Of a stretch of 64,000 bases of DNA, positions 18,892 through 61,169 are shown one piece after another. The translations under genes and the position numbers were made by a program. Below the pieces are notes generated by a model that saw only the letters and a program-made list of their open reading frames with translations, was not told where the DNA came from and did not search any database. The DNA is taken from contig OZ243961.1 of the NCBI GenBank assembly GCA_965214605.1, forward strand, positions 553,917 through 617,916, in the 5' to 3' direction. This stretch comes from an uncultured Candidatus Binatia bacterium. Lineage in GTDB: Bacteria > Desulfobacterota > Binatia > Bin18. Position 1 is the first letter of the stretch. Each line of letters begins with the position of its first letter.

Positions 18892-18902
18892 ACTATCCGT
18901 CC

Positions 18903-21407: not shown

Positions 21408-23159
21408 TTAGCCATCCGCTTGCAGACCTTCCTCTCGCAGGGTTGTTCGGGTTTGACTCGGCAGGGCCGCCACGTCCGTATAGCGGCCTTTCCACCTCAC
21501 CCGTCCGCGGTCCAAAACGAGCACCGGCTCACCCCGGTGTAAGGAGGATAGACGATGGGTGATACAGATGAGGGTGCGGTCTGACATAAACGCCTCTAAG
21601 GTCTCCCGTACCTCGGCCTCAGCGCTTACATCAAGACCGGACAGAGCTTCGTCCAGAACGAGCACCGTTGGCCGTTTGAGTACCGCCCGGGCCAGACCGA
21701 TGCGCTGTCTTTGTCCGGCCGACAGTCGAGTTCCACGCTCACCAACCGCAGTCTGGTAGCCGTCGGGCAGGGAGACAATGAACTCGTGTAGGCCGAGCAT
21801 AGTCGCGGCATCAACCACGTCTTTCTCCGATGCCTCGGGAGTAGCGTAACGCAAATTGTCTAGCAGCGAAGCATTAAATAACACTGGCTCGTGGTCAACC
21901 ACCAGAATATGTTTGCGCAGCCAGGAGACCTCACACGCCGACAGCGGCTGGCCGTCGAGCAGGATGGTCCCAGCCTGCGGCTCGTATAAGCGCACCAGCA
22001 GGTCGGCCAGGGTCGATTTACCGCTCCCGCTCGGCCCCAGCAGGGTGAGGCGTCCACCGGCTGGGATATGAAAACTGACCTGGTCTAAGACCGGCTCAGA
22101 CAGATTGTAGGCAAACGAGACCCTTCGAAACTCGACCTCTCCCCGCAGCCCGGCGAGCCGCTTGCCGTGTCCAAGCCGCTCGACCTGGTCGACATCCAAG
22201 AACTCAAAAATCCGATCAATCGACACCCCGGTCCGTTCAATCCGTAGATATAAATCCATTAACATCTGGAGCGGACTAAAGGCCCGAGTTTGGTAGGCCG
22301 AGAAGGCGACCAGCCCGCCGATACTCAGCTGCCCATCAATCACCAGGTAGCCGCCATATAAGGTGGTCAACGCACCGCCGAGAAACGTGGTAGCGGTCGA
22401 GGCACTGCTGGCAGCATAGCCCAGCATTTCGTAGCGCGTCACCATACTCACAAATTGTCTACCTAGTGCGCCCAACCGCCCGAGCTGCACCTGCTCGACC
22501 CCGAACAGTTTGATAAAGCGTACCGCGGACAGCGATTCGATCAGAAAGGAAGAGAGCCGGGCGTTCAGCTCCCGCACTCGCCGCGTCTCATCGACTAGCC
22601 GGGGGCGAACCTTGTTGACGCCGTACAGCTGTAGCGGCACAACTAGCAGGGCGACCACACACAGCTTCCAGTTCAGCCACACCAAAAAGCCCATGGTTGC
22701 GATCAGGACAAACACGTTCGACACAAAAGTAAAGGCCGCGTCGGTCAGCACCGCCTGGACTTCGGCAATGTCGGTGTTGAGCCGCGACAGCAGGTCACCG
22801 ACCCGATTATGGGTATGAAAACGCAGCGACAGCGCCTGGAGATGGGCAAACACATGCTGACGTAGGGAGAACAGAATATGGGCGGTTATTTGGGTGTAAT
22901 AGTAGCGGTTACAAGCCCCGATCACATAGCCGGCGGCCGTCACCAAGACCATCACTCCGCTCAACACAAACAGCAAGTGCAGATTCTTGGCTAGCAGCAC
23001 GTCGTCAATCAGAATCTTGGTAAAAATTGGCCACAGCAGACCTAGAACAGTTCCAAACAGAGACAGTCCAAAGACCATAATGAGACGCCGGACAAACGGC
23101 GTGACAAAGGGCAGCAGACGGCGGAAGCGTGATAGGGAAGTGACGACGGACGGTCTCAT
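21408..23159 (-). CDS. qhpF: ABC transporter permease/ATP-binding fusion (exporter type, QhpF-like)
   Basis: 6-TM N-domain; Walker A GPSGSGKST, signature LSAGQRQRIGLARA, Walker B LVLDEALSGLD. Confidence 0.8.
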   Translation of the reverse strand: MRPSVVTSLSRFRRLLPFVTPFVRRLIMVFGLSLFGTVLGLLWPIFTKILIDDVLLAKNLHLLFVLSGVMVLVTAAGYVIGACNRYYYTQITAHILFSLRQHVFAHLQALSLRFHTHNRVGDLLSRLNTDIAEVQAVLTDAAFTFVSNVFVLIATMGFLVWLNWKLCVVALLVVPLQLYGVNKVRPRLVDETRRVRELNARLSSFLIESLSAVRFIKLFGVEQVQLGRLGALGRQFVSMVTRYEMLGYAASSASTATTFLGGALTTLYGGYLVIDGQLSIGGLVAFSAYQTRAFSPLQMLMDLYLRIERTGVSIDRIFEFLDVDQVERLGHGKRLAGLRGEVEFRRVSFAYNLSEPVLDQVSFHIPAGGRLTLLGPSGSGKSTLADLLVRLYEPQAGTILLDGQPLSACEVSWLRKHILVVDHEPVLFNASLLDNLRYATPEASEKDVVDAATMLGLHEFIVSLPDGYQTAVGERGTRLSAGQRQRIGLARAVLKRPTVLVLDEALSGLDVSAEAEVRETLEAFMSDRTLICITHRLSSLHRGEPVLVLDRGRVRWKGRYTDVAALPSQTRTTLREEGLQADG

Positions 23160-45607: not shown

Positions 45608-47386
45608 ATGCCTACTGAGCTGAGCAAGGTCCTTCTCCATCGAGGGGTACTCCAACGGCTGCGTCTGGCATCCGGGAGCGTCCTGTTTTGCTATGTCGGC
45701 CTGCACCTGCTCAACCATGCGCTAGGCTTGGTTTCCCTAGCGGCAATGGAGGCCGGCCGCACCTGGTTTCTCTTTGTGTGGCGCAGCCCGGTCGGCTCGC
45801 TGCTCTTATACAGCTCGCTGAGTGCACATGTAGCTCTGGCCCTGGTCTCAGTCTACCACTACCGCCACTCCCGTCTTTCACCCCGCGAGCGGTTTCAGTT
45901 TGTGTTCGGCTTTCTCATCCCCCCGCTATTGATCCCCCATATCGTTGGTACCCGTCTGGCTCACGACTGGTACCAGATGAACGATTCATACACCTTTCTC
46001 GTTCTGCGCTACTCGGTGCTGAGCCCCGGGCTCGGCATTATGCAGTCTCTCCAACTCGTCTTGACCTGGCTACACGGCTGCATGGGTCTTTACTCCTGGC
46101 TGCGCCTCAAGCCTTGGTACCCGCGCGCGGCCATGACCCTCTACAGCCTAGCCCTACTGCTGCCGGTGCTGGCCGTGCTCGGCTTCAGTCAGGCTGGACA
46201 GGAAGTTGCCCGCCTAGCCCAGCAGCCGGGCTGGACCGAACAGCTGTTCCAGACCGTCAATACGCTAAGCCCAGCCCAAGAGGCGCTGCTGCAGCAAACC
46301 GGTTTATTGATGATCGGCGGCTATGCGCTCAGTGTGGCCGGGGTGTATCTCATCCGGGTCGTCCAGCGGCGCTATCTTCGGTCTCAGCGGGCGATCCAGA
46401 TTACCTATCCCCACGGTCAAACCCTGACCGCTCCCCAGGGTGCCAGCGTGCTGCAAATCAGCCGCCGGGCCGGCATCCAGCACGCCTCGGTCTGTGGTGG
46501 ACGCGGCCGGTGTTCAACCTGTCGGGTGCGGATCGTGCAGGGCCTTGAGTTGCTGCCAACCAGCAACGAAGCAGAGCGGCGCGTGCTGAGACGGGTCGGC
46601 GCCCCGCCAAACGTCCGCTTGGCCTGCCAGCTACGGCCGACCCACGACCTGACCGTTATTCCGCTCCTACCCGCCAGAGCCCAGGCCAGAGAGGGTTTTG
46701 CTCAGGCTGGCTATTTGGCCGGCCAGGAGAGAGAGATTGCCGTTTTATTTGCCGATTTACGCGGTTTTACCCGCATCTCCGAACATAAGCTGCCCTACGA
46801 TGTGGTGTTTCTGCTAAACCGATATTTCGAGGTCGTCGGCAATGCCATTGAGCGGGCAGGCGGTATTGCCAATCAGTTCACCGGCGACGGCGTGATGGCC
46901 CTATTCGGGGTGCAGAGCACCCCCCGAACGGCCAGCCGCCAGGCCCTAGCCGCGGCCGTGGCGATGGTCCAGGGTCTGGCCGAGCTCAGTCTGCTCCTAG
47001 CCGAGGAACTCGATGCGCCGCTCAGGCTAGGTATCGGGATTCATACCGGACCGGCCGTTGTCGGTCGTATGGGCCGGGGGGTGGCCTCGTACCTGACCGC
47101 GGTCGGTGATACCGTGCATGTTGCCAGCCGCCTCCAAGACCTGACCAAGGAGTATCAGTGTCAGATGGTGATTTCCGAACAGCTAGCCGCCTATGCCGGC
47201 CTTGATGCGACCCCCTTCCTCCGCCATGAATTGACGGTCCGTAACCGTGGCGAGCCGATTGTGATTCGGGTCATCAAAGACGTCCGTGCGGTGGAGATTC
47301 AGACGCTGGCCGACAAGATGGACGAGACAAGCGAGATGAGCAGGACAGGCAAGACCGTTCGGCCAGATCAGCATCAGGCCTCCTAG
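45608..47386 (+). CDS. membrane-anchored adenylate/guanylate cyclase with plant-type 2Fe-2S ferredoxin domain
   Basis: N-terminal 5-6 TM segments; CGGRGRCSTCRV ferredoxin cysteines; class III cyclase domain (IAVLFADLRGFT...). Confidence 0.7.
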   Translation: MPTELSKVLLHRGVLQRLRLASGSVLFCYVGLHLLNHALGLVSLAAMEAGRTWFLFVWRSPVGSLLLYSSLSAHVALALVSVYHYRHSRLSPRERFQFVFGFLIPPLLIPHIVGTRLAHDWYQMNDSYTFLVLRYSVLSPGLGIMQSLQLVLTWLHGCMGLYSWLRLKPWYPRAAMTLYSLALLLPVLAVLGFSQAGQEVARLAQQPGWTEQLFQTVNTLSPAQEALLQQTGLLMIGGYALSVAGVYLIRVVQRRYLRSQRAIQITYPHGQTLTAPQGASVLQISRRAGIQHASVCGGRGRCSTCRVRIVQGLELLPTSNEAERRVLRRVGAPPNVRLACQLRPTHDLTVIPLLPARAQAREGFAQAGYLAGQEREIAVLFADLRGFTRISEHKLPYDVVFLLNRYFEVVGNAIERAGGIANQFTGDGVMALFGVQSTPRTASRQALAAAVAMVQGLAELSLLLAEELDAPLRLGIGIHTGPAVVGRMGRGVASYLTAVGDTVHVASRLQDLTKEYQCQMVISEQLAAYAGLDATPFLRHELTVRNRGEPIVIRVIKDVRAVEIQTLADKMDETSEMSRTGKTVRPDQHQAS

Positions 47387-51529: not shown

Positions 51530-52696
51530 TTACGGCTGCCCCAACACCGCGACACACGACACCGCACCCGGCCCGCCAACGTTGTGGACCAAACCCAGCC
51601 TGGAATTTTGGATCTGACGCGGGCCGGCTTGGCCACGCAGCTGAGTCACAATCTCATACACCATACGGACTCCGCTAGCCCCGATGGGATGCCCAAAAGA
51701 CTTGAGGCCACCGCTTGGATTAACCGGGATATCGCCGTCCAGAGCGGTCCGCCCTTCTTCAATCAGGGTAGCCCCCCGGCCTTTGGGGACAAAACCCAAG
51801 TCTTCATAATTGGTGATTTCGGTCCAGCTAAAACAGTCGTGGACCTCGGCCACGTCGATCTCCATGAGCGGGTCGGTAATGCCGGCCATGGCGTAGGCCT
51901 GGGCCGAGGCGTGCTCAGTAGCCTGAAAGCCGAGGTAGTCATAGCTCGGGTCCATAAAGGGCCGACCGCTGCTCACCGCTAGGCCCACCCCTTTTACCAA
52001 AATATAGTCATCGCGGTATTCTTTGGCCAGATCCGACCGACACACCACAACCGCGGCCGCCCCATCGGTCGTCGGACAGCAGTCATACAGGCCGAACGGA
52101 TAGGCCACGATGGGCGCGGTCAGGACTTCTTCGGCAGAGACGGTCTTTTGCAGATGAGCCTTGGGATTCAACGAGCCGTTGTAGTGATTTTTGACCGACA
52201 CCTTGGCCAGGCTCTCACGGGTCAGTCCATAGGTGTGCATATAGCGGGTAGCAGCCAGGGCAAACAGACCCGGCGCGGTTGACCCGTCATTATAGTAGGG
52301 ATGCACGCCCTCACGCGCCAAGCCACGCCCCGGACGGTCTTTGTACTTCTCCACCCCGAGCACCAAGGCCATATCGTACAGCCCGGCCGCCACGGCTATG
52401 ACCGCGTGACGGAAGGCATCGGTTCCGGTCGCGCAAAAATTCTCGACCCGGGAGATTGGTTTATTGTACAGACGCAGCGCATCGCCCAAGGAGACCGCGG
52501 CCTTACCGTGTCCCTGGGCGGGTGAATAGGTGCCAAGCCAGGCCGCGTCAATCTCGTCAGGGGCAATCTTAGCGTCGTGAAAAGCGGCAAACGCCGCCTC
52601 AACCGCCATTTCTTCGTAACCCTGATCAACATTGTCCCCAAACTTAATGCAGCCTGCCCCAATGACAGCAACCTGATCTTTGATGGAAGCGGACAT
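51530..52696 (-). CDS. thiolase-family protein (SCP-x/archaeal-type acetyl-CoA acetyltransferase-like)
   Basis: VAVIGAGCIKFGDN N-terminal active-site Cys region; C-terminal GHPIGASGVRMVYE block. Confidence 0.75.
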   Translation of the reverse strand: MSASIKDQVAVIGAGCIKFGDNVDQGYEEMAVEAAFAAFHDAKIAPDEIDAAWLGTYSPAQGHGKAAVSLGDALRLYNKPISRVENFCATGTDAFRHAVIAVAAGLYDMALVLGVEKYKDRPGRGLAREGVHPYYNDGSTAPGLFALAATRYMHTYGLTRESLAKVSVKNHYNGSLNPKAHLQKTVSAEEVLTAPIVAYPFGLYDCCPTTDGAAAVVVCRSDLAKEYRDDYILVKGVGLAVSSGRPFMDPSYDYLGFQATEHASAQAYAMAGITDPLMEIDVAEVHDCFSWTEITNYEDLGFVPKGRGATLIEEGRTALDGDIPVNPSGGLKSFGHPIGASGVRMVYEIVTQLRGQAGPRQIQNSRLGLVHNVGGPGAVSCVAVLGQP

Positions 52697-53948
52697 GACT
52701 TCTCCCTTCTGCAACAGCTGTCGTGTTCCCCCCTACTAGCAGCTTGGACAAGAGCCATGACCAACGTCGCAATCCCTGCCCCTTGCAGCCGCAAAGCCCG
52801 CTACCACTGCGCCTTTGTGGCCGGGTGGTCATCGTCTGTCTGAGACGCTTCTCCGATAGCTCTGGCTCTGGCTTCGGCCTGACACTAGTCCATCCCGGTC
52901 TTTTACAACTCTTTGGCTCTAGTCCGTGTGTCAAAAGCCATGACTTGGCTCTCCCCTTTCCTGCCCAATATACCCCCTATTAAGGAAGAAAACAGCGGGG
53001 AAAACTTTGCTATCTCACCTTAAACACCTATAGGGAGGTATTGTCTGATTGCCAGGCATGTCAAGCCGCGGCCTGCTTGCCTCGCCCCCAGCCTCTCCCG
53101 CGCCGGGAGGGGGGAAAGCCTCCGCCTACAGCAGGTGAAATTGGCACAGTACTCTGGCCACCTCCGGATCGCTACGCTGTTCTAACGCCCAGAACACCTC
53201 TCTCAGCTCCTCCAACCGCAGGCGGTTGCCGCTGAGGTCATCTTCCAGGCTCCCCACCTGCCTGCGCAAAGGTCCAACTCATCGTTCGTCGGTTCCGCAG
53301 CACAAAGCCTCTGCTAAGCCGCCACGAGTGTGCTACAGGCACTCTAGTAGCCTCAGGGTCAACTGAAATTGGCGGGCAAACCGTGCGGCCATGTCCTCCC
53401 GCAGTTGGTGAGAACGCCTAGCCGTATCGGTCCAGAGTTGCTCATTCTGTTGGGCCCGCAGCTGGCCCATCTCCGCCGGCAACCGACCGATGTCTCCACG
53501 CAATTGCTGGGACCGCGTCCGCCAACCCCGCTTGTCGGGCTTCGAGTCGTATCAGACGCCTCGGTCAAGGTCGGGGATAGCTCTCCGGGGCGGGCAAGAA
53601 CACTATGACCAAAACCCCCGGGAGGAAGGATTAACTCATGGCGGCATTCAAGGTCGGATGCCGGAAATGTCAAGTCATGTGGAAAAGGGGATCAGCCTGA
53701 CTCGACTGACGGGGCCGTTATGGCATCCACAGCTTCTCCTCAGCAGGGGTAAGCCAAGGCGGCATAATATCGAAAGGGGCGAGCCAGCAACCGCAGCGGC
53801 TCGGTCCCCCCTCCCCTCCTCTCTCCAAGGGGAGGAAAGTGCAGACGGAGACACGACTCGCCAGCGGCTCAATTCCTGGTCTTGCTTGTTTCAAATCCCA
53901 TGTCTAGGCTGTGTTGGGAAAGCTCTTCAGCAGACGAATAGGAGAGAT

Positions 53949-56900
53949 ATGAGACGACAACATCACAGTGGTCAGAACGCTCGTGACTGGCGGCGCCAAA
54001 TAGCAGCCTCTGCGGAGAAACAACAAGAAAGCGTCTTCACATATAAGTTTGGACTGAGCATACAAGAGGGAGATTTAGACTTTGCCGCGGCCACTCGAAC
54101 CTACGACATCACCGAAGGGATTTTATGCGGGAGCTTAATCGGCTTGATATGCGCTGTGCATCTGTCCGGGTTTCGCCTATTTTCCAAGAGCGGGGAGACA
54201 CGCCAGTTCCGAAATCGAAGTCGATATCCCGAAGACGCATTCACCAAGGCGTTCCGCGCTCATACGGAAATCATAAACCCTGACATTACGATTCAGTCAA
54301 TTGAGGCTGTCTTCGCCGCACCTCCGCGAAAGAAAATAGCCTGGTCAGCGGACACCCTTGGGAAGCGGCTGTTTCAAACCTGGAACAATCGCTCCCCAAA
54401 AGACGCAGAGAGAGAGCACCCAGAATTTTTACTGGCCCAGGGAATCGCTTGCGAAGTCGCCAAACAGTTCTCCGGATGGAAGGAACTCGCCGACAATGTA
54501 AGCGGTGCACTGGCCTGCGCTGACAGATATCTGGCGACCCTGGGAGACTCCTTTCCAAAACTCAGTAACCTGCCACCCGGAACCACGATCAATCCAGACT
54601 CTTGTACGCTTGCCTACGATCCCGAATCGCCCTTCGTTGAGATGGTTGGTAACGAAGAAAACTGGCTCCATCAGGTAGTGGCGGTTTGTGCTGGCAGGCT
54701 GAAACGAGACATGCCCGATCGTGACCTATCCTCGTCTGATTTTGCAAAGCGTCTGAACGACGCTGTTGTTACTAGTCAGCACAATGGACTGTCTTGGTTA
54801 TTCGGCAACGGCCTACGCTACCTTCGGAAATCAAGCATTGAGCGGATTACCGAAAACCTTGATGTTCCACACGGGAAGCGCCAACGAGTTGAACAACTCA
54901 AAGCCTTTGCCGACGCGCTTCCTGACAATCCATTTTTCGACACCAATGGCTATGCCGAGTTTCGTACCTCCGTCGGTGGCAAGATCGCCTCATGGGTCTC
55001 GAACTACTGGAAGCGCATTTGCGAACTTGCGACGTTGCATTCTCAGCCGCCGGATATCGCTATTCCCGAAACGCTGCAAGATCCCGATAACGCCTTTCTG
55101 TTTTCTGGTCAGCACACCAACGCTGCCGGCCTCATAGACCTCTCTAATCGCATCCCTGAGCGGGTCAAAAAAGCCGGCAATGCGCTTGTTGTTCTGCGTG
55201 GAAGTTGTATTCCTGGACCGGAAGATATCGCCGTCGTTGAATCCGTTGCCGATGAGATGACCGAACTCACTGGGCAACTCTCCATGCTCGACAACCGCAT
55301 TCGGCAGGAAACCGAACGCGCCAAAGACGCCGAAAACGAAAAACGTGCCAAGGTCCTAGAATCCCTCAGGCCAAACATTCCCAAAGGTCTCAAGGATCTG
55401 CCCAAACTAAACAGCATATCAGGCGGCACCGTGGACGCTACCGGTGAGATCAAACGGCTGGAAGCCGACCTGAACTCCGTCATACGAGCACGCCGTGAGC
55501 ACTTCCGGCAACTCTCTGAATGGGCGGACAGTAACGCAGGCGGCCTTGATCCCCTGCCCATCCTTAAAGAACGCGAACAAGAGGCGCTTTCCGACCGAAA
55601 CATGGACCTCGATTGTGCAGCTGAATACGCTATCCGGCGTCTGCTTGATCGCATCGGCGTCATGTCGCATCGACTGTCGCCAAGTGTAGCCGAGCAAATC
55701 CGGACCGCCATGACGCCGCTTTTTCGCAGGAAAAAAGAGGCAAACCGCTACTTCTACAATCGCAACGGCAGGATCTATCGGCATCCCTTCAGCACCTCAC
55801 GTCACCAGGCTTATGCCATAGACGTAGAGCGTGCCCACGCAACCGATTGGCTCTTGTGGTTGGAGGAGCGGACGACAGAAATCCGTAACGCTCTGCGCGC
55901 GGATCAGACACGCCTACGCGATCTTCTGTTGATGGAAGCTTTTGTCCTGACGACACGGCTCGGCGGTCTCTCTGATCGTGTACCGGGGGATCTGGCGAAA
56001 CCGGAAAACGACTGTCTCAACATTCCTCCCCTGCTCAAAGCGCAGCTCGAGGCTAGGGAGGTTTCGCGCGATGTGGCCGTGCGCGCCTTCAATCTGTTCA
56101 ATAGTGCTATCAATGGTCTGTCGTTTCGCGCCTTCCGTGATAGTTTCATTGTTCGCGTTAAGTTTCAGCGCCAAGATCGCGAAGAAGTATTTTATGTCCC
56201 GAAGGAACGCCCCTGGCAGGCACCAGCTGACTATGATTCAGCCAAGGGTGAGATATCTAAGGGCTTGAAGCTCTCCGCAGTCGTGCGTGACCAAACCGGG
56301 GCTGTTCTGCCGCGTGAGACAGCCAAGGGCTTGAGTAAGGCGAAGTTTCCCGAGCCGGGTACGCGTGCCCTGCTGCGTCAATCGCCTCATGACTGGTTCG
56401 TCGAACTCGATGTCCGCTCTACCCAGGCTTCGGAGTTGGCAGGGCTGCCCGTCAAGAAGAACAAAGACGGACTCAAGCGCTGGAAAGTCCTGAAAAAGCC
56501 GGCCTTTCGACTAGTCGGGCCGCCCTCGTTCAAGACGCAGCTCGACCGCGCTCTGACAAGCGGAGAGGTGAAGCTCGGCGACTACACGCTCATCATTGAC
56601 CAGCTCTTCAAACAGTCCTTGTACGTCGAAGGTGAGGAGATACACCTTTTGGCTGAACCGGTAAAGATTCGGGCAGAACTGGCGGTTCCAGTAATAGACA
56701 ACCGGCCGTATCCCAAGTCTGAAACCGACTTGATATTTAACAAGATCGTTGCCATAGACCTTGGCGAGCGACGGGTCGGCTACGCGGTCTTCTCGCTCAT
56801 AGACTTCGTGGAAAACGGTTGCCAAAATCCGATCAAGGTGGGGAGCGTCGCCATTCCCGCTTTCAGGAAACTGATGGCCGCGGTCCGCCGCCACCGCGGG

Positions 56901-57734
56901 TCGCGGCAGCCCAACCAGAAGGTCGACCAAACCTACTCGAGAGCGCTGATGCAGTTCCGAGAAAACGTGGTGGGAGACGTCTGCTCTCGCATTGAGACCT
57001 TGTGCGAATACTTCGGCGGATTTCCCGTACTCGAAAGTTCGGTGGGAAATTTCGAGACAGGGGGCCGCCAGCTGGAGATGATCTATGGTTCAGTCCTGCG
57101 CCGCTACACTTTCTCCGAAGTGAAAGCCCATAAAGCCACCCGTAGCCATCATTGGTTCACAGCGGACACCTGGAAGCATCCCTACGTCTACACCTACACC
57201 TACACCTGGAATAAGAGAGAAAAGCAATATTCCGGCCCATCCAAGCCGCTGAAGATATTCCCCGGCGTCACGATCAACCCGGCCGGCACCAGCCAGACTT
57301 GCCAGCATTGTAAGCGGAATGCCCTTCAGGCGCTGCGTAACATGACGGACAAGGTCGAAGTGGGAGAAGACGGCCGCGTAGTCCTCGGAAACGGGACGAT
57401 ACGGCTTCTCGAACGAGCCGATTATCTTCCTTCCGAACGAAGAAAATTTCGTCACAACAAAGCAAGGCCGCCGCTAAACGTGCCTGCCCAGAAAGGATCC
57501 CGGCTAAGCCGCGACATCACGCGTATCGCCAGACGAAACATGCGGCAACCCCCATCTTCCACAATGTCACCCGATACCACACAGTCTCGCTTCAAATGCG
57601 TGTACGTTGACTGCGGCTATGAGGGGCATGCCGACGAAAATGCCGCAATTAACATCGGCCGGCGTTTTTTGGAACGGATCGATATGGAAACGTCGAGAGG
57701 GACGTGCCGGGACTTGACCGGGCAGCGAGAATGA
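53949..57734 (+). CDS. cas12: Cas12-family (type V) CRISPR effector, ~1261 aa
   Basis: C-terminal TnpB-like core: RuvC-I IVAIDLGERRVGYAV, RuvC-II VLESSVGNFE, Zn-finger CQHCKRN...CVYVDCGY, RuvC-III GHADENAAINIGRRF; large N-terminal REC-like region; SD GGAGAG before the ATG at 53949; upstream part of the 53490 ORF looks non-coding. Confidence 0.75.
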   Translation: MRRQHHSGQNARDWRRQIAASAEKQQESVFTYKFGLSIQEGDLDFAAATRTYDITEGILCGSLIGLICAVHLSGFRLFSKSGETRQFRNRSRYPEDAFTKAFRAHTEIINPDITIQSIEAVFAAPPRKKIAWSADTLGKRLFQTWNNRSPKDAEREHPEFLLAQGIACEVAKQFSGWKELADNVSGALACADRYLATLGDSFPKLSNLPPGTTINPDSCTLAYDPESPFVEMVGNEENWLHQVVAVCAGRLKRDMPDRDLSSSDFAKRLNDAVVTSQHNGLSWLFGNGLRYLRKSSIERITENLDVPHGKRQRVEQLKAFADALPDNPFFDTNGYAEFRTSVGGKIASWVSNYWKRICELATLHSQPPDIAIPETLQDPDNAFLFSGQHTNAAGLIDLSNRIPERVKKAGNALVVLRGSCIPGPEDIAVVESVADEMTELTGQLSMLDNRIRQETERAKDAENEKRAKVLESLRPNIPKGLKDLPKLNSISGGTVDATGEIKRLEADLNSVIRARREHFRQLSEWADSNAGGLDPLPILKEREQEALSDRNMDLDCAAEYAIRRLLDRIGVMSHRLSPSVAEQIRTAMTPLFRRKKEANRYFYNRNGRIYRHPFSTSRHQAYAIDVERAHATDWLLWLEERTTEIRNALRADQTRLRDLLLMEAFVLTTRLGGLSDRVPGDLAKPENDCLNIPPLLKAQLEAREVSRDVAVRAFNLFNSAINGLSFRAFRDSFIVRVKFQRQDREEVFYVPKERPWQAPADYDSAKGEISKGLKLSAVVRDQTGAVLPRETAKGLSKAKFPEPGTRALLRQSPHDWFVELDVRSTQASELAGLPVKKNKDGLKRWKVLKKPAFRLVGPPSFKTQLDRALTSGEVKLGDYTLIIDQLFKQSLYVEGEEIHLLAEPVKIRAELAVPVIDNRPYPKSETDLIFNKIVAIDLGERRVGYAVFSLIDFVENGCQNPIKVGSVAIPAFRKLMAAVRRHRGSRQPNQKVDQTYSRALMQFRENVVGDVCSRIETLCEYFGGFPVLESSVGNFETGGRQLEMIYGSVLRRYTFSEVKAHKATRSHHWFTADTWKHPYVYTYTYTWNKREKQYSGPSKPLKIFPGVTINPAGTSQTCQHCKRNALQALRNMTDKVEVGEDGRVVLGNGTIRLLERADYLPSERRKFRHNKARPPLNVPAQKGSRLSRDITRIARRNMRQPPSSTMSPDTTQSRFKCVYVDCGYEGHADENAAINIGRRFLERIDMETSRGTCRDLTGQRE

Positions 57735-57841
57735 GCCACCATCGTTCCTATTCTCTTCCAGGCCCAAGGACTTATCATCCATACCTCAACCTGGAAGACG
57801 TCCCCGCCTCCCCGGACGCCCTTCAAAGAGGGGAGGCATCA

Positions 57842-58897
57842 TCACCTTACCAGCTTTGAAGAGGAATGGGAGGTAAGGGGAATATCGCCTGGCAGCCGAT
57901 AGGAGACCTTTGGCGGACGCCCGCCTTTACGTTCACCCGCGGCGGGAACGATAAACCGGCGCATGTCGCCGGCCAGGTAAGCCCGCAGCGCCAACACGCT
58001 TCCATGCAACAGATTTTTACGGCGCACAAACTGGTGGGTAGCGGGAACGTAGACAACCTTCTCCATATCGTTCTTCAGCCCGGACAAAGTGGCTTTGGTC
58101 AGCGAGTCAGAGGCATTGTCCGGGGGATGGGTCCGGCAGGCCCCGGCAACGGCCTCTTCAATCATGTACCGGGCTGGCTCCATGAGATCGTAGACAAGTC
58201 CCATGTAGTCGGTCCCTTCATGCAGGAATCCGTGACTGGGCGAAAGCCGGTGGATTAACAACCAGCGCAAGAGTACCCCAGACAGGAACATGGACCCTGC
58301 ATCAAGGGCGGCTGGTAAAGGCCCCTCCCCTCTGCGAGTGATATCAGGGTATCCCATCCGAGTGAAATATCTCCGCCAATATCTGCGTGATTGCTCGGCT
58401 TCCCAGGCCCGTATCTGTCCAAGATTCCGTGTACGCGCCAGCCGTTTGTAGACAGCGCTTGGCATGGGCAGTGTGTTCTCTACCGCCCGAAAACGTTCAC
58501 GTACTAGAGTCCGCGCAATATAGGCACGTTTAGATTTATTTGTCCGGGTAACGATCTGTCTGGTCAAAATATCGTCGGCATCGACTCTGGGAGCTGGCAA
58601 GAAAATCGCTGGGCGGCTGATGTTGCGGCGGTGAACAAGGAGGGGCACTCGGCGAAAGGCAAGTTCGTCAATGAGAGCGACCGGAATCTGGCCAGTCGCG
58701 CCGTAGAACATGATGCAATCAAGCTGCGACAGCTCAGTATCGACCTCGCCTCCGTTATATGTGAACCGCCATAAGTTCTTTTTGAGCCTTGCTACCTGAG
58801 AGACGTATGGTAGCCACAAGGTCGTCTTGCTTCTCCGCTTGGTTGATTTCCATGTCCAAAGAGAATTTGGATGTTGAAATTGATCAATTTTAACCAT
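57842..58897 (-). CDS. cas1: CRISPR-associated endonuclease Cas1
   Basis: Cas1 blocks LDCIMFYGATGQIPVALIDELAFRRVPLLV and HGFLHEGTDYMGLVYDLMEPARYMIEEAV; no cas2 or cas4 adjacent. Confidence 0.85.
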   Translation of the reverse strand: MVKIDQFQHPNSLWTWKSTKRRSKTTLWLPYVSQVARLKKNLWRFTYNGGEVDTELSQLDCIMFYGATGQIPVALIDELAFRRVPLLVHRRNISRPAIFLPAPRVDADDILTRQIVTRTNKSKRAYIARTLVRERFRAVENTLPMPSAVYKRLARTRNLGQIRAWEAEQSRRYWRRYFTRMGYPDITRRGEGPLPAALDAGSMFLSGVLLRWLLIHRLSPSHGFLHEGTDYMGLVYDLMEPARYMIEEAVAGACRTHPPDNASDSLTKATLSGLKNDMEKVVYVPATHQFVRRKNLLHGSVLALRAYLAGDMRRFIVPAAGERKGGRPPKVSYRLPGDIPLTSHSSSKLVR

Positions 58898-58958
58898 ATA
58901 TGTCCTCAGTAAGAAAATCGAAAAATCATTGTAATATAAATATTTATCTGGTATACCT

Positions 58959-59623
58959 CCAGTTCTGAAGGGGAATTAGAGGCCGAAAAATATGAGTTCT
59001 GAAGGGGAATTAGAGGGTGTGGAGCATGACGCAATCCAGTTCTGAAGGGGAATTAGAGGCTGAAATACGGGCGTTCCTCCAGTTCTGAAGGGGAATTAGA
59101 GGTTCTCAACAGCATGAGGAGTCCAGTTCTGAAGGGGAATTAGAGGTTCTCAACAGCATGAGGAGTCCAGTTCTGAAGGGGAATTAGAGGTTCTCAACAG
59201 CATGAGGAGTCCAGTTCTGAAGGGGAATTAGAGGTTCTCAACAGCATGAGGAGTCCAGTTCTGAAGGGGAATTAGAGGTTCTCAACAGCATGAGGAGTCC
59301 AGTTCTGAAGGGGAATTAGAGGTTCTCAACAGCATGAGGAGTCCAGTTCTGAAGGGGAATTAGAGGTTCTCAACAGCATGAGGAGTCCAGTTCTGAAGGG
59401 GAATTAGAGGTTCTCAACAGCATGAGGAGTCCAGTTCTGAAGGGGAATTAGAGGTTCTCAACAGCATGAGGAGTCCAGCAGGGGAATTAGAGGTTCTCAA
59501 CAGCATGAGGAGTCCAGTTCTGAAGGGGAATTAGAGGCACGCGCATGACGCACCCCCCAGTTCTGAAGGGGAATTAGAGGATGGAAGGCTTCGGGCTGCC
59601 CAGTTCTGAAGGGGAATTAGAGG
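58959..59623 (+). CRISPR. CRISPR array, 16 repeats of 24 nt (CCAGTTCTGAAGGGGAATTAGAGG) with 18-20 nt spacers; AT-rich leader at 58898..58958
   Basis: period 43-44 bp; 6 distinct spacers, one present in 10 tandem copies; second repeat lacks 5' CCA; one repeat is truncated (59475..59493). Confidence 0.85.
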
Positions 59624-59644
59624 CAGGGAGGGAGGGCTGGAATC

Positions 59645-60370
59645 TCATCGCTGTCCAAGTCGAATCGCCTCGGCCAGGTCTACCGCGCCGGTGTAGAGGG
59701 CGCGGCCGATAATCAGGCCGTGTATACCGTCCGCTTTACATGGCCGCAGCCGCTCAATGTCTTCAAGACTGGCCACGCCACCAGAGGCAATAACAGGAAT
59801 CTGAATTGCCCGAGCCAAGAGCCGGGTGGCTTCGATATTCACCCCTAGGGATGTACCGTCACGGATAATATCGGTGTAGACAATCTCACCAACGCCCATA
59901 TCTTGGCACTGTTCGGCAAGTTGCGTCGCCTCAAGCTCAGTCGCTTCAGTCCAGCCTTGGACAGCGACTTTCCCGTCCCGGGCATCAATGCCAACCGTAA
60001 TCCGGCCCAAAAAGCGTCTACATGCCTCAGCTACAATCTGAGGCTGCCGATAGGCTACTGTGCCCAGAATTGCACGCTGTACCCCGAGTGAGAACATCTG
60101 CTCAATCGCCGCTAGGCTGCGCAGTCCACCGCCGAGCTGAACCGGAATATGTAAGGATTGGCAGATTTTTTCTATAGCGTCAGTGTTCACGCCTGCGCCT
60201 GACATGGCGCCGTCAAGATCAACTAGGTGGAGCCGAGCGGCTCCGGCGTCTTGCCAGCGCTGTGCCACGGCGACCGGATCGTCGGAGTAGATGGTCGCCT
60301 GAGCCATATCACCTTGGTAGAGACGCACACACTGACCGGCCTTGAGGTCGATGGCGGGGATAATCTCCAT
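59645..60370 (-). CDS. hisA: 1-(5-phosphoribosyl)-5-[(5-phosphoribosylamino)methylideneamino]imidazole-4-carboxamide isomerase
   Basis: MEIIPAIDLKAGQCVRLYQGDM...; TIM-barrel HisA blocks; start set at MEIIPAID. Confidence 0.85.
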   Translation of the reverse strand: MEIIPAIDLKAGQCVRLYQGDMAQATIYSDDPVAVAQRWQDAGAARLHLVDLDGAMSGAGVNTDAIEKICQSLHIPVQLGGGLRSLAAIEQMFSLGVQRAILGTVAYRQPQIVAEACRRFLGRITVGIDARDGKVAVQGWTEATELEATQLAEQCQDMGVGEIVYTDIIRDGTSLGVNIEATRLLARAIQIPVIASGGVASLEDIERLRPCKADGIHGLIIGRALYTGAVDLAEAIRLGQR

Positions 60371-60375
60371 AGGAA

Positions 60376-61038
60376 TCACAGAGGAGGGTGGTGGTCGGTC
60401 ACAAATTTGCCGAAGTTGGCCAAGATTTGTAGGCCGACGGCCTGGCTTTTTTCTGGGTGAAATTGGGTAGCGAAGATATTGCCTGACCAAACACTCGACG
60501 CAAAATGGATGCCGTACTCGGTGGTGGTGGCCACGATGGCCGGGTCTGTTGGGATCGGATAATAGGAGTGAACAAAATACACCGCCGCGCCCTCGGGTAT
60601 CTTGGCCAAATGGGGGGCTGGTCGCTCAATGTGGAGCTGGTTCCAGCCCATATGGGGGATTTTTTGTGGACCGTTGTCGGTTGTCAGCAGAGCAGGATCA
60701 AAGCGCTCGACCGTGCCTTTAAGGATGTCCAAACCTTGCTCCCGGCCAAACTCGTAACTTTCTGAAAACAGGATCTGCATACCGACACAAATCCCAAGCA
60801 GCGGCGTGCCGCTGTTGGCCACCCGATGGACGGTTTCGATAAGCCTACATTTAGCCAGCCCGTCCATACACGCGCTAAACGCGCCCACGCCCGGCAGTAC
60901 TACTCCCGCGGCAGCCTCAATGCGGGCAGCGTCCCTGGTGATTTCAGCCGGGTAGCCCATCTTCTCGCAGGCTTTTTGGACACTCCGCAGATTGCCCATA
61001 CCATAGTCAATAATCGCAATTGTGCCGAGAGGCATTCT
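60376..61038 (-). CDS. hisH: imidazole glycerol phosphate synthase, glutamine amidotransferase subunit
   Basis: MPLGTIAIIDYGMGNLRSV...GICVGMQ; start set at MPLGTIAI. Confidence 0.85.
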   Translation of the reverse strand, partial: RMPLGTIAIIDYGMGNLRSVQKACEKMGYPAEITRDAARIEAAAGVVLPGVGAFSACMDGLAKCRLIETVHRVANSGTPLLGICVGMQILFSESYEFGREQGLDILKGTVERFDPALLTTDNGPQKIPHMGWNQLHIERPAPHLAKIPEGAAVYFVHSYYPIPTDPAIVATTTEYGIHFASSVWSGNIFATQFHPEKSQAVGLQILANFGKFVTDHHPPL

Positions 61039-61051
61039 CTCTCCTCCGCTC

Positions 61052-61135
61052 CCTCCCTCTCCCTCTAATTCCCCTTCGGAGCTGGCCAGAGATATAGGTA
61101 TAGGGCATAGGACATCGGCTATTTCACAATCACAC
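61052..61135 (+). ncRNA. candidate tracrRNA-like element: 24-nt anti-repeat followed by an 8-bp hairpin
   Basis: CCTCTAATTCCCCTTCGGAGCTGG is the reverse complement of the CRISPR repeat except two A-to-G changes that give G-U pairs with a plus-strand crRNA; followed by GGCTATTT-N15-AAATAGCC. Confidence 0.35.
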
Positions 61136-61169
61136 TGCAAAATAGCCGTGTATTAAAGTGGCGTGTTGT

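What the first reader, a model, noticed from the sequence alone, without database searches (positions are those of the whole stretch)
53949..59623. Compact type V CRISPR-Cas locus: large Cas12-family effector plus a lone Cas1 and a short-repeat/short-spacer array (V-C/V-D-like)
The 1261-aa protein has a complete RuvC-I/II/III and Zn-finger core confined to its last ~350 residues, as expected for Cas12/TnpB. It converges on a gene with clear Cas1 signature blocks. The array lies 60 bp from the cas1 start. No cas2 or cas4 is present, and the spacers are only 18-20 nt. A Cas1-only adaptation module with unusually short spacers is characteristic of subtypes V-C (Cas12c) and V-D (Cas12d). The N-terminal 900 aa show nothing I can align from memory, so the effector may be a divergent or new Cas12 lineage. 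The locus sits between a thiolase operon and hisA, consistent with an accessory insertion.
Basis: partly seen in the sequence, partly recalled or inferred. Interest (0 to 1): 0.8.

Follow-up and report, generated by a model that had tools for sequence, protein, structure and literature searches.

The report
Ordinary type V-C CRISPR-Cas12c locus
This is a complete but ordinary type V-C CRISPR immune locus (Cas12c effector, its helper tracrRNA, a lone Cas1 integrase and a short-spacer array) in a Binatia-like bacterial chromosome; it belongs to a family that is already structurally and biochemically characterised, not to a new Cas12 lineage.

Summary
cas12c lies at 53949-57734 (+), convergent cas1 at 57842-58897 (-), then a 60-bp leader and a 16-repeat array at 58958-59623.

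The 1261-aa protein is a full-length Cas12c, not a new lineage. It scores 1075 bits on the NCBIfam Cas12c equivalog (cutoff 250) and matches the solved Cas12c2 and Cas12c1 structures end to end. Its closest public relatives are 72% identical. The Cas12d/CasY and TnpB models fail their cutoffs.

Its stems and its three contacts with the CRISPR repeat are supported by compensatory changes across 13 related loci. The layout matches the published Cas12c2 tracrRNA.

No cas2 or cas4 is present anywhere in the 64 kb. Repeats are 25 nt and spacers 18-19 nt, as known for type V-C. Cas1 groups with the cas1 genes of other Cas12c loci.

The oddities are minor:
- One spacer is present in 10 tandem copies.
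- The leader-proximal unit carries a deletion.
- A 1.15-kb insert of unknown nature lies upstream.
- The neighbouring hisH-hisA block is inverted relative to syntenic genomes.

Verdict: a new member of a known kind, of low-to-moderate interest.

The parts
53860..53948 (+). Conserved upstream region of cas12c (putative promoter and 5' UTR)
   Evidence: This is the only part of the 1.2-kb upstream gap that is conserved with the syntenic loci L001 and L009 (75-80% nt identity). That it acts as a promoter is inferred.
53949..57734 (+). cas12c, 1261 aa, the type V-C effector
   Evidence: NCBIfam NF033950 Cas12c scores 1075.3 bits (cutoff 250) over residues 11-1245. PDB matches are 7v93 Cas12c2 (E 1.3e-152) and 7vyx Cas12c1 (E 1.7e-122). 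RuvC residues D937, E1029 and D1229 and zinc-finger cysteines C1118, C1121, C1217 and C1222 are invariant.
57714..57742 (+). Putative tracrRNA promoter: TTGACC, 17 nt, CACCAT, overlapping the last cas12c codons
   Evidence: TTGAC is nearly invariant at the nucleotide level in 12 loci, although the protein C-terminus is variable. The position would put the transcript start at the first anti-repeat. This is inference only; the consensus promoter scan did not call it.
57749..57841 (+). tracrRNA (scoutRNA), about 90 nt. AR-1 AUUC at 57750-57753; stem 1 at 57755-57762 with 57790-57797; stem 2 at 57768-57770 with 57778-57780; dock CCUC at 57784-57787; stem 3 at 57799-57803 with 57814-57818; AR-3 CCCUUCA at 57819-57825; extra helix at 57806-57813 with 57830-57837
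   Evidence: The intergenic region is 77-85% identical at the nucleotide level across all relatives. In the covariation count, 98.3% of cells are paired, 10 pairs show compensatory change, and 0 of 500 shuffles reach this. Both variable tracr:repeat helices are 100% paired with compensatory changes. RNAalifold independently recovers stems 1 and 3. MFE is -32.9 kcal/mol with z = -3.2. The layout equals the Cas12c2 tracrRNA (PMC9522604). The ends are approximate.
57842..58897 (-). cas1, 351 aa, the lone adaptation gene
   Evidence: Pfam Cas_Cas1 at E 7.9e-14 and PADLOC Cas1 at E 1.6e-23. It is 44-87% identical to the cas1 gene that is present in most of the Cas12c loci fetched. Active-site residues E166, H226, D237 and E240 are invariant.
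58898..58957 (+). Leader with a conserved extended -10 element (TGTAATAT at 58930-58937)
   Evidence: An AT-rich 60-bp leader with the motif TTGTAATATAA or close variants is conserved upstream of the first repeat in the closer relatives (L001-L003, L006, L009-L011; less clear in L004, L005, L007). Promoter function is inferred.
58958..59623 (+). CRISPR array: 16 repeats of 25 nt (NCCAGTTCTGAAGGGGAATTAGAGG) and 15 spacers, of which only 5 are intact and distinct
   Evidence: The + orientation is supported by four observations: the leader position; repeat variants (TCCA proximal, CCCA distal); degenerate distal repeats in relatives; and G-U pairs in the tracrRNA helices that would be C-A mismatches on the other strand.
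58983..59016 (+). Damaged leader-proximal unit: 13-nt spacer CCGAAAAATATGA followed by a repeat lacking its first 4 nt
   Evidence: It is best explained by a deletion of about 9-10 bp across the spacer 1/repeat 2 junction. No relative has such a unit.
59078..59537 (+). Block of 10 tandem copies of the spacer TTCTCAACAGCATGAGGAG; the repeat at 59474-59493 is shortened (TCCAGCAGGGGAATTAGAGG)
   Evidence: The shortened repeat lacks the UGAAGGG segment that pairs with tracrRNA AR-3. Smaller spacer duplications occur in L001, L004, L005 and L009.

Best explanation
This is a chromosomal type V-C CRISPR-Cas system with all known components: cas12c, a tracrRNA gene, cas1, a leader and a CRISPR array.

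**Shown here.** The effector is a full-length Cas12c orthologue with an intact RuvC site and zinc finger. The tracrRNA lies immediately 3' of cas12c on the same strand. It contacts the repeat through three short helices: AUUC with GAAU, CCUC with the terminal GAGG, and CCCUUCA with UGAAGGG. Cas1 is the only adaptation gene and belongs to the Cas1 lineage that accompanies Cas12c. Repeats are 25 nt and spacers 18-19 nt.

**Inferred from characterised orthologues.**
- Cas1 alone acts as a 'mini-integrase' and inserts prespacers of about 18 bp at the leader-proximal repeat.
- The array is transcribed from the leader on the + strand.
- Cas12c with the tracrRNA binds each repeat, and its RuvC site cuts the pre-crRNA at the 3' end of the spacer.
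- The complex binds double-stranded DNA next to a 5'-TN PAM.
- It then protects either by blocking transcription without cutting (as shown for Cas12c2-type enzymes) or by cutting (as reported for Cas12c1). Which applies to this orthologue is not known.

The array looks worn. It has only five intact distinct spacers, one of them amplified ten-fold by repeat-mediated duplication, and a deletion in the newest unit.
For: - **Effector family.** NF033950 Cas12c scores 1075 bits (cutoff 250), end to end. PDB Cas12c2 and Cas12c1 match at E 1e-152 and 1e-122 over residues 5-1244. Catalytic and zinc residues are invariant, and D937 aligns with Cas12c1 D969.
- **Conserved architecture.** Nine related loci (L001-L005, L007, L009-L011) share the full cas12c / tracr / cas1 / leader / array order, with repeats GCCAGTTYTGAAGGGGAATTRGAGG and 18-19-nt spacers; L006 and L008 have decayed versions.
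- **tracrRNA.** The intergenic region is 77-85% identical at the nucleotide level. In 31 pairs, 98.3% of cells are paired and 10 pairs show compensatory changes, which 0 of 500 shuffles reach; partners slid by 1-3 columns drop to 42-58% paired. Examples of co-variation with the repeat are tracr CCCUACA with repeat UGUAGGG, ACUC with GAGU, and CUCUUCA with UGAAGAG. RNAalifold agrees for stems 1 and 3. The dock motif UCCnUACCUCA lies just after cas12c even in the clades at 45% and 30% identity. The layout matches the published Cas12c2 tracrRNA (PMC9522604).
- **Adaptation module.** Cas1 lineage and active site are. No cas2 or cas4 was found.
- **Literature.** V-C lacks cas2, its Cas1 integrates alone, spacers are about 18 bp and repeats about 25 bp (PMC6977970; PMC8464041). 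RuvC processes the pre-crRNA and silences without DNase activity (bioRxiv 10.1101/2021.12.06.471469). Cas12c1 is described as a DNase (PMC9723637).
Against: - Nothing contradicts the classification.
- No expression data exist. The tracrRNA ends and both promoters are inferred, and the consensus promoter scan did not call them.
- No convincing protospacer was found, so neither PAM nor targets are established. The 18-mers hit 0-3 viral contigs each, which I judge to be roughly chance level for 18-mers in a collection of that size (no expectation was computed).
- The array is partly degenerate, so current activity, especially acquisition, is uncertain.
- Rfam holds no matching family, so the RNA call rests on my own comparative analysis.
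Confidence: 0.95

Rival explanations
1. The locus is a type V-D (Cas12d/CasY) system or an intermediate between V-C and V-D. V-D also has a Cas1-only module, short spacers and a scoutRNA.
For: V-D shares Cas1-only adaptation and short repeats and spacers (PMC6977970; PMC8464041). The Cas12d model gives a sub-threshold hit of 99.8 bits on residues 931-1237.
Against: The Cas12d hit is below its cutoff (250) and confined to the RuvC region. The Cas12c model matches end to end at 1075 bits. The best PDB matches are Cas12c2 and Cas12c1 over the full length. The tracrRNA layout matches Cas12c2.
Confidence: 0.01
2. The large protein is an IS-encoded TnpB-like nuclease that merely lies next to a CRISPR array, not a CRISPR effector.
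For: The Pfam TNB-domain hit (PF07282) and a weak TnpB-family hit of 24.8 bits both fall in the last 30 residues.
Against: The TnpB hit is far below its cutoff (100). The protein is three times the size of TnpB and matches Cas12c throughout. The cas1, tracrRNA and array are co-conserved with it in most of the related loci. No inverted repeats or IS ends flank it.
Confidence: 0.005
3. The locus is a genuine V-C system in decay. Acquisition is no longer active, and the array is being reshaped only by recombination, so it contributes little immunity today.
For: Only 5 intact distinct spacers remain, against 9-55 repeats in most relatives. One spacer is duplicated ten times. The leader-proximal unit carries a deletion that removes the first 4 nt of the downstream repeat, a segment shown to be needed for processing in Cas12c2. 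One internal repeat has lost its AR-3 pairing segment. Relatives show real decay: L006 keeps only 84 codons of cas1, and L008 has a frameshifted cas1 and no array.
Against: cas12c and cas1 are intact, with all catalytic residues. The tracrRNA keeps every helix. The leader and the first repeat are intact. The array's repeats are otherwise identical.
Confidence: 0.25
4. The ten-fold spacer block is an assembly artefact of a 44-bp tandem repeat and not the true genome sequence.
For: Perfect tandem units of 44 bp are difficult for assemblers. I have no reads to check.
Against: Assemblers usually collapse such repeats rather than expand them. The block contains one distinct variant unit (59474-59493). 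Smaller spacer duplications are seen in independent long-read MAGs of the same clade (L001 in an ABAB pattern, and L004, L005, L009).
Confidence: 0.15

Closest known systems
Cas12c2 (type V-C effector; PDB 7V93/7V94; Kurihara et al. 2022, PMC9522604)
   Same: Homology is full-length (E 1.3e-152, residues 5-1244). RuvC D/E/D is the same, corresponding to D928/E1014/D1201 in Cas12c2. The tracrRNA plan is the same: a 4-bp 5' anti-repeat, stem 1 enclosing stem 2 and a 4-bp dock for the last four repeat nucleotides, stem 3, then a 7-bp anti-repeat. Spacer length of 17-19 nt is also shared.
   Different: It is a different clade, whose closest relatives come from Binatia, Nitrospirales, Alphaproteobacteria and Bryobacterales MAGs. 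Repeat and tracrRNA sequences differ. The native tracrRNA here has an additional conserved 6-8-bp helix between the stem-3 loop and the 3' tail, which I did not find described for the engineered Cas12c2 sgRNA. Its DNase status is unknown.
Cas12c1 (PDB 7VYX; Zhang et al. 2022, PMC9723637)
   Same: Homology is full-length (E 1.7e-122). The catalytic Asp aligns with D969. It is also guided by two RNAs.
   Different: It is more distant than Cas12c2. Cas12c1 is reported to cleave DNA, whereas Cas12c2-type enzymes do not. Which behaviour this orthologue has cannot be read from sequence.
Type V-C Cas1 'mini-integrase' (Wright et al. 2019, cited in PMC6977970 and PMC8464041)
   Same: It is a lone Cas1 without Cas2, associated with repeats of about 25 bp and spacers of about 18 bp. 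The Cas1 here is 44-87% identical to the cas1 present in most Cas12c loci fetched and keeps the catalytic Glu, His and Asp/Glu residues.
   Different: It has not been tested biochemically. I could not read the primary paper, which is not held in the library.
Type V-D (Cas12d/CasY)
   Same: It also has Cas1-only adaptation, short repeats and spacers, and a short-complementarity scoutRNA.
   Different: The effector fails the Cas12d model: 99.8 bits against a cutoff of 250, in the C-terminal region only.

Membership tests
Type V-C CRISPR-Cas (Cas12c) | The effector is a full-length Cas12c homologue | tested here: met
   NF033950 scores 1075.3 bits (cutoff 250), residues 11-1245 on model positions 1-1244 of 1246. 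PDB Cas12c2 and Cas12c1 match at E 1e-152 and 1e-122.
Type V-C CRISPR-Cas (Cas12c) | Intact RuvC D/E/D triad and a C-terminal zinc-finger (TNB) domain | tested here: met
   D937, E1029 and D1229, plus C1118, C1121, C1217 and C1222, are invariant in 21 homologues. D937 aligns with Cas12c1 D969. PF07282 matches at E 4e-8.
Type V-C CRISPR-Cas (Cas12c) | A tracrRNA (scoutRNA) with short docks complementary to the repeat, encoded in the locus | tested here: met
   Window 57749-57841 (+). Covariation across 13 loci includes both variable tracr:repeat helices. RNAalifold agrees for stems 1 and 3. The layout matches Cas12c2. Expression was not tested.
Type V-C CRISPR-Cas (Cas12c) | Adaptation module of Cas1 only (no Cas2, no Cas4) | tested here: met
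   PADLOC scans of ORFs >=60 aa in 46-64 kb and >=80 aa in 1-46 kb found only Cas1. The rest of the genome could not be tested.
Type V-C CRISPR-Cas (Cas12c) | Short repeats (about 25 bp) and short spacers (about 17-19 bp) | tested here: met
   Repeats are 25 nt and spacers 18-19 nt.
Type V-C CRISPR-Cas (Cas12c) | Cas1 belongs to the lineage that accompanies Cas12c | tested here: met
   It is 44-87% identical to the cas1 present in most Cas12c loci fetched, which is more conserved than the effector itself. E166, H226, D237 and E240 are invariant. No formal tree against other subtypes was built.
Type V-C CRISPR-Cas (Cas12c) | 5'-TN PAM on double-stranded DNA targets | tested here: inconclusive
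   Only a handful of protospacer hits were found, which I judge to be chance level. One spacer hits three related viral contigs with a 5' TC or TG flank, and three other hits lack a T.
Type V-C CRISPR-Cas (Cas12c) | RuvC-catalysed pre-crRNA processing, and DNA binding with or without cleavage | not testable with these tools
   This needs biochemistry.
Type V-D CRISPR-Cas (Cas12d/CasY) | The effector matches the Cas12d family model | tested here: not met
   NF033951 scores 99.8 bits (cutoff 250), on residues 931-1237 only.
IS200/IS605 TnpB | A TnpB-size protein that matches the TnpB model, within an IS element | tested here: not met
   NF040570 scores 24.8 bits (cutoff 100) on 26 residues. The protein is 1261 aa. 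No inverted repeats were found in the upstream flank examined, 52600-54000.

The most novel reading that the evidence does not exclude
The ten-fold tandem amplification of one spacer could be a selected increase in crRNA dosage rather than neutral recombination debris. If this Cas12c acts by binding without cutting, like Cas12c2, protection or regulation would depend on occupancy of the target. Copy number of a crRNA could then matter in a way it does not for cutting enzymes. The target might even be a resident element or host gene that is being silenced.
Probability: 0.06. Interest if true: 0.55.

Novelty: new member of a known kind. Interest (0 to 1): 0.25.

Why it matters
The scientific value is modest. 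The locus adds a well-resolved natural example of a complete V-C system from a poorly studied clade of Cas12c. That clade is only distantly related to the characterised Cas12c2 by sequence, yet it is spread across several phyla of uncultured bacteria.

The comparative set assembled here gives a covariation-supported native tracrRNA, including a 3' helix absent from the engineered guides. It also gives natural repeat/anti-repeat co-variants. Both could help in designing guides for orthologues of this minimal-PAM enzyme, which may bind DNA without cutting it.

It does not open a new question. The subtype, its Cas1-only integrase, its tracrRNA and its structures are all published, and NCBI's annotation pipeline already has a model that would name this gene.

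Tried and rejected
- **Rfam.** A gathering-threshold search of the whole window, and E-value searches on 52600-54000 and 57600-59700, gave nothing meaningful. No curated family covers this tracrRNA or repeat.
- **Exact-sequence look-up.** The Cas1 sequence is not in the collection, so the source contig could not be identified directly. The host was inferred from synteny with Binatia MAGs.
- **Self-targeting.** No spacer matches the 64-kb window at up to 3 mismatches. No spacer from 12 arrays of the clade matches the window or any other locus, apart from one single-mismatch hit that I take to be chance.
- **Viral targets.** The five distinct spacers gave 0, 1, 2, 0 and 3 exact hits in IMG/VR, which I judge to be about what chance gives for 18-mers in a collection of that size. 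Only the three related contigs hit by spacer ATGGAAGGCTTCGGGCTG have a TN-compatible flank. I do not count these as established targets.
- **Promoter and terminator scan.** It did not call the leader or the tracrRNA promoter at its thresholds, so those remain inferences from conservation.
- **Other defence genes.** PADLOC hits to mad3/mad8, pVip and PycC elsewhere in the window turned out to be a generic ABC transporter, a radical-SAM protein and a class III cyclase.
- **The 1.15-kb window-specific insert (52708-53860).** It has no repeats, no Rfam hit, no similarity to the window or to any fetched locus, and no family hit for its small ORFs. It is left unexplained.
- **First 13-nt spacer as a regulator.** I considered whether it is a regulatory cr-like guide, because it shares CGAAAAAT with the leader. 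I rejected this as unsupported: it is an 8-mer in AT-rich DNA, the first position mismatches, and no relative has such a unit.
- **Structure prediction.** It was not run, because direct full-length sequence matches to two solved Cas12c structures make it unnecessary.

Full report
**1. The observation**

- A long ORF ends at 57734 on the + strand. The first in-frame ATG is at 53490, but all homologues begin at the Met at 53949 (consensus MRRxxHGGxNARxWRR). The 1261-aa reading is therefore correct.
- A 351-aa ORF on the - strand (57842-58897) converges on it. It matches Pfam Cas_Cas1 (E 7.9e-14) and PADLOC Cas1 (E 1.6e-23).
- Sixty base pairs from its start codon an array begins. Tandem Repeats Finder gives period 44 and score 893. 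I count 16 repeats from 58958 to 59623.
- Relatives define the repeat as 25 nt (GCCAGTTYTGAAGGGGAATTRGAGG). In the window the first base varies: T in the 13 full-length leader-proximal repeats and C in the two distal ones. Spacers are 18-19 nt.
- The flanking genes are a thiolase (51530-52714, -) and hisA then hisH (59645-61140, -).

**2. What the large protein is**

It is a Cas12c, over its whole length.

- The NCBIfam equivalog model for Cas12c (NF033950) scores 1075.3 bits against a cutoff of 250. It aligns residues 11-1245 to model positions 1-1244 of 1246.
- The Cas12d/CasY model reaches 99.8 bits (cutoff 250) on residues 931-1237 only. Cas12e, Cas12b, Cas12f2 and TnpB give only short C-terminal hits.
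- Against solved structures, the best matches are Cas12c2 (7V93; E 1.3e-152; residues 5-1244) and Cas12c1 (7VYX; E 1.7e-122).

In an alignment of 21 homologues spanning 28-73% identity, the RuvC carboxylates D937, E1029 and D1229 are invariant. So are the four zinc-finger cysteines C1118, C1121, C1217 and C1222. D937 aligns with the alanine of the Cas12c1 D969A crystal construct.

The large protein database holds 74 homologues. About 45 are 54-72% identical to the window protein, and one at 66% is already named 'type V CRISPR-associated protein Cas12c' by NCBI.

**3. Relatives and host**

A scan of species-representative genomes returned 11 loci with Cas12c at 61-74% identity. They come from MAGs titled Candidatus Binatia (five), Nitrospirales (two), Alphaproteobacteria, Bryobacterales (two) and one unclassified bacterium. 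More distant Cas12c loci at about 33% identity were also found. A metagenome scan added 45 more, mostly distant.

Nine of the eleven close loci (L001-L005, L007, L009-L011) have the window's full architecture: cas12c, a short conserved spacer region, antisense cas1, an AT-rich leader, then an array on the cas12c strand with near-identical repeats and 18-19-nt spacers. L006 and L008 have decayed versions.

The window is syntenic with two Binatia MAGs, L001 and L009. Nucleotide identity is 84-86% for the thiolase, 77% for the CRISPR locus and 79-87% for the GST and following genes. The host is therefore a related Binatia-like bacterium, and the locus is an old resident of that chromosomal site. 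The presence of the same clade in several phyla implies horizontal transfer on a longer time scale.

**4. The missing component: a tracrRNA**

The 107 bp between the cas12c stop (57734) and the cas1 stop (57842) are 77-85% identical at the nucleotide level in all relatives. That is more conserved than the genes themselves.

Read on the + strand, the region contains the following elements in order (coordinates):

| Element | Sequence | Window coordinates | Partner |
|---|---|---|---|
| AR-1 | AUUC | 57750-57753 | repeat positions -10 to -7 (GAAU) |
| Stem 1 | CUUCCAGG / CCUGGAAG | 57755-57762 / 57790-57797 | intramolecular |
| Stem 2 | GGA / UCC | 57768-57770 / 57778-57780 | intramolecular |
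| Dock | CCUC (invariant) | 57784-57787 | last four repeat nucleotides (GAGG) |
| Stem 3 | CGUCC / GGACG | 57799-57803 / 57814-57818 | intramolecular |
| AR-3 | CCCUUCA | 57819-57825 | repeat positions -17 to -11 (UGAAGGG) |

I joined each locus's tracr region to its own repeat and counted pairs across 13 loci.

- 98.3% of 401 cells are standard pairs.
- 10 of 31 pairs show changes on both sides that keep the pair.
- No shuffle out of 500 reaches these values.
- Sliding the 3' partners by 1-3 columns drops pairing to 42-58%.

The intermolecular helices are the most telling, because repeat and tracrRNA are separate genes. Loci whose repeat reads UGUAGGG have tracr CCCUACA. Loci with GAGU have ACUC. 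Loci with AAGU have ACUU. The locus with UGAAGAG has CUCUUCA. All such cells are paired.

RNAalifold, run without my structure, recovers stems 1 and 3 with six compensatory pairs. The window sequence alone folds at -32.9 kcal/mol, z = -3.2.

G-U pairs in several helices would be C-A mismatches on the other strand, which fixes the strand as +.

This layout is the one seen in the Cas12c2 cryo-EM structure. There, crRNA -11 to -8 pairs with the tracrRNA 5' end, crRNA -4 to -1 pairs with the dock enclosed by stem 1, and crRNA -18 to -12 pairs after stem 3 (PMC9522604).

The motif UCCnUACCUCA just downstream of cas12c persists even in the clades at 45% and 30% identity.

There is one extra feature. 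A 6-8-bp G+C-rich helix joins the stem-3 loop (GCCUCCCC, 57806-57813) to the 3' tail (GGGGAGGC, 57830-57837). It is present in all 14 loci examined (weakly supported in L009), with compensatory variants such as GCCGCCCC/GGGGCGGC, GGCUGCC/GGCAGCC and GGCUCCC/GGGAGCC. It could form a pseudoknot with stem 3, or act as a terminator hairpin that presents AR-3 in its loop. In many relatives it is followed by a U-rich stretch. I cannot decide between these readings.

A TTGACC at 57714-57719, followed 17 nt later by CACCAT, would start the RNA at AR-1. TTGAC is nearly invariant although the protein C-terminus it encodes is variable. This promoter is an inference, and the consensus scan did not call it.

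**5. Adaptation module**

PADLOC scans found no cas2, no cas4 and no other cas gene. They covered every ORF of 60 aa or more between 46 and 64 kb, the locus ORFs at a permissive threshold, and every ORF of 80 aa or more in the rest of the window.

The Cas1 is 44-87% identical to the cas1 found in most of the Cas12c loci fetched. It is thus more conserved than the effector itself. E166, H226, D237 and E240 are invariant in an alignment of 16 of them, consistent with the Cas1 active site.

Published work states that types V-C and V-D lack cas2. It also states that a V-C Cas1 integrates spacers alone as a tetramer, and that it prefers prespacers of about 18 bp and repeats of about 25 bp (PMC6977970; PMC8464041). 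The primary paper, Wright et al. 2019, is not held in the library. The window matches these numbers exactly.

**6. The array in detail**

Orientation is + and the leader is on the cas1 side. Four observations support this:

- the conserved leader with an extended -10-like TGTAATAT (58930-58937);
- the polarity of repeat variants in the window;
- degenerate repeats at the far end in relatives;
- the strand of the tracrRNA.

Only five intact distinct spacers are present. The spacer TTCTCAACAGCATGAGGAG occurs ten times in tandem (59103-59512). The repeat before the tenth copy is shortened to TCCAGCAGGGGAATTAGAGG (59474-59493), which removes the AR-3 pairing segment.

The leader-proximal unit has a 13-nt spacer followed by a repeat that lacks its first four bases. 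A single deletion of about 9-10 bp is the most likely cause. [quoted passage not shown]

Smaller spacer duplications occur in L001 (an ABAB pattern), L004, L005 and L009. Repeat-mediated duplication therefore seems common in this clade, but ten copies is extreme.

I found no target.

- There is no match in the window at up to 3 mismatches.
- There are no matches between any spacer of 12 arrays and any fetched locus.
- Viral hits number 0-3 per 18-mer, which I judge to be about chance level.
- The three hits of spacer ATGGAAGGCTTCGGGCTG fall in related viral contigs with a 5' TC or TG flank. That is compatible with a TN PAM but not significant.

**7. Mechanism**

*Shown here:* the parts list, the RNA-RNA contacts, and the integrity of the catalytic residues.

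*Inferred from characterised orthologues:*

- Cas1 alone integrates prespacers of about 18 bp at the leader-proximal repeat.
- Cas12c bound to the tracrRNA recognises the repeat.
- The RuvC site trims the pre-crRNA at the spacer 3' end.
- The mature complex binds double-stranded DNA next to a 5'-TN PAM.

Whether it then only blocks transcription, as shown for Cas12c2-type enzymes (bioRxiv 10.1101/2021.12.06.471469), or cleaves, as reported for Cas12c1 (PMC9723637), cannot be read from the sequence.

**8. Comparison, novelty and score**

Every defining feature of type V-C that sequence analysis can test is met. V-D and TnpB membership tests fail. This is a new member of a known kind.

The clade is under-studied and distant from the characterised enzymes, and the native tracrRNA model with its extra helix may be useful. 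However, nothing here would surprise a CRISPR specialist. I score interest at 0.25.

The least ordinary element is the ten-fold spacer amplification. A reading in which crRNA dosage matters for a binding-only effector is not excluded, but I give it about 6%.

**9. Limits**

- There are no expression data and no reads.
- The rest of the genome is not available, so a distant cas2 or a chromosomal target of the amplified spacer cannot be excluded.
- The tracrRNA ends are approximate.
- No formal Cas1 tree was built.
- The alignment used for the pair counts was made by MAFFT on tracr-plus-repeat concatenates. One locus (L005) was left out because an extra hairpin misaligned its 5' end. By eye its stem 1 co-varies fully (UGCCGUG/CACGGCA).

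Noticed in passing
window 52708-53860: A 1.15-kb stretch lies between the thiolase gene and the conserved cas12c upstream region. It is absent from the syntenic loci L001 and L009, where the gap is about 130 bp. It has no long intact ORF; a - strand frame with coiled-coil-like fragments is broken by stops. It has no repeats, no Rfam hit and no similarity to anything fetched. It also happens to keep the cas12c frame open for 153 codons upstream of the true start. Its origin is unknown; it may be a decayed gene or a mobile-element remnant.
   Followed up: partly
window 59638-61020: The hisH-hisA block directly downstream of the array is inverted relative to the syntenic Binatia loci L001 and L009 (83% nt identity, opposite orientation), while the genes on both sides keep their orientation. 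In L001 and L009 hisH starts within about 20-40 bp of the last repeat. In the window hisA ends 21 bp after it.
   Followed up: partly
window 59078-59537: There are ten tandem copies of one repeat-spacer unit (spacer TTCTCAACAGCATGAGGAG), one with a shortened repeat. The spacer has no exact hit in IMG/VR and no match in the window.
   Followed up: yes
window 58983-58995 and 58918-58926: The truncated 13-nt first spacer CCGAAAAATATGA shares the 8-mer CGAAAAAT with the leader and cas1-promoter region 60 bp upstream. This is probably chance in AT-rich DNA, and no relative has such a unit.
   Followed up: partly
window 57806-57813 with 57830-57837 (and the equivalent positions in L001-L025): A conserved, co-varying 6-8-bp helix joins the loop of tracrRNA stem 3 to the 3' tail. 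It is either a pseudoknot or a terminator hairpin that displays the AR-3 anti-repeat in its loop.
   Followed up: partly
L006 13956-14207; L008 13953-14973: The same locus is decaying in other Binatia MAGs. L006 keeps only the first 84 codons of cas1 next to a 5-repeat array. L008 has a cas1 split into two frames and no detectable array.
   Followed up: partly
L001-L011, L020: One Cas12c clade (61-74% identity, near-identical repeats and tracrRNA) is found in MAGs assigned to Binatia, Nitrospirales, Alphaproteobacteria and Bryobacterales. This suggests horizontal exchange within a shared habitat. From memory, unverified, these long-read MAG series and the 'Desulfurellaceae' MAG may come from marine sponge microbiomes.
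   Followed up: no
L068 3739-3756, L069 7274-7291, L070 5440-5457: The distal spacer ATGGAAGGCTTCGGGCTG matches three related IMG/VR contigs (64% G+C) exactly. The 5' flank is TC or TG, which is compatible with the Cas12c TN PAM. The number of hits is within what I would expect by chance for an 18-mer.
   Followed up: partly
window 45608-47386, 21408-23159, 17431-19008: PADLOC hits to Pycsar cyclase, MADS mad3/mad8 and prokaryotic viperin are generic domain matches. Pfam shows a ferredoxin-fused class III nucleotidyl cyclase, an ABC transporter and a radical-SAM protein. There is no second defence system in the window.
   Followed up: yes
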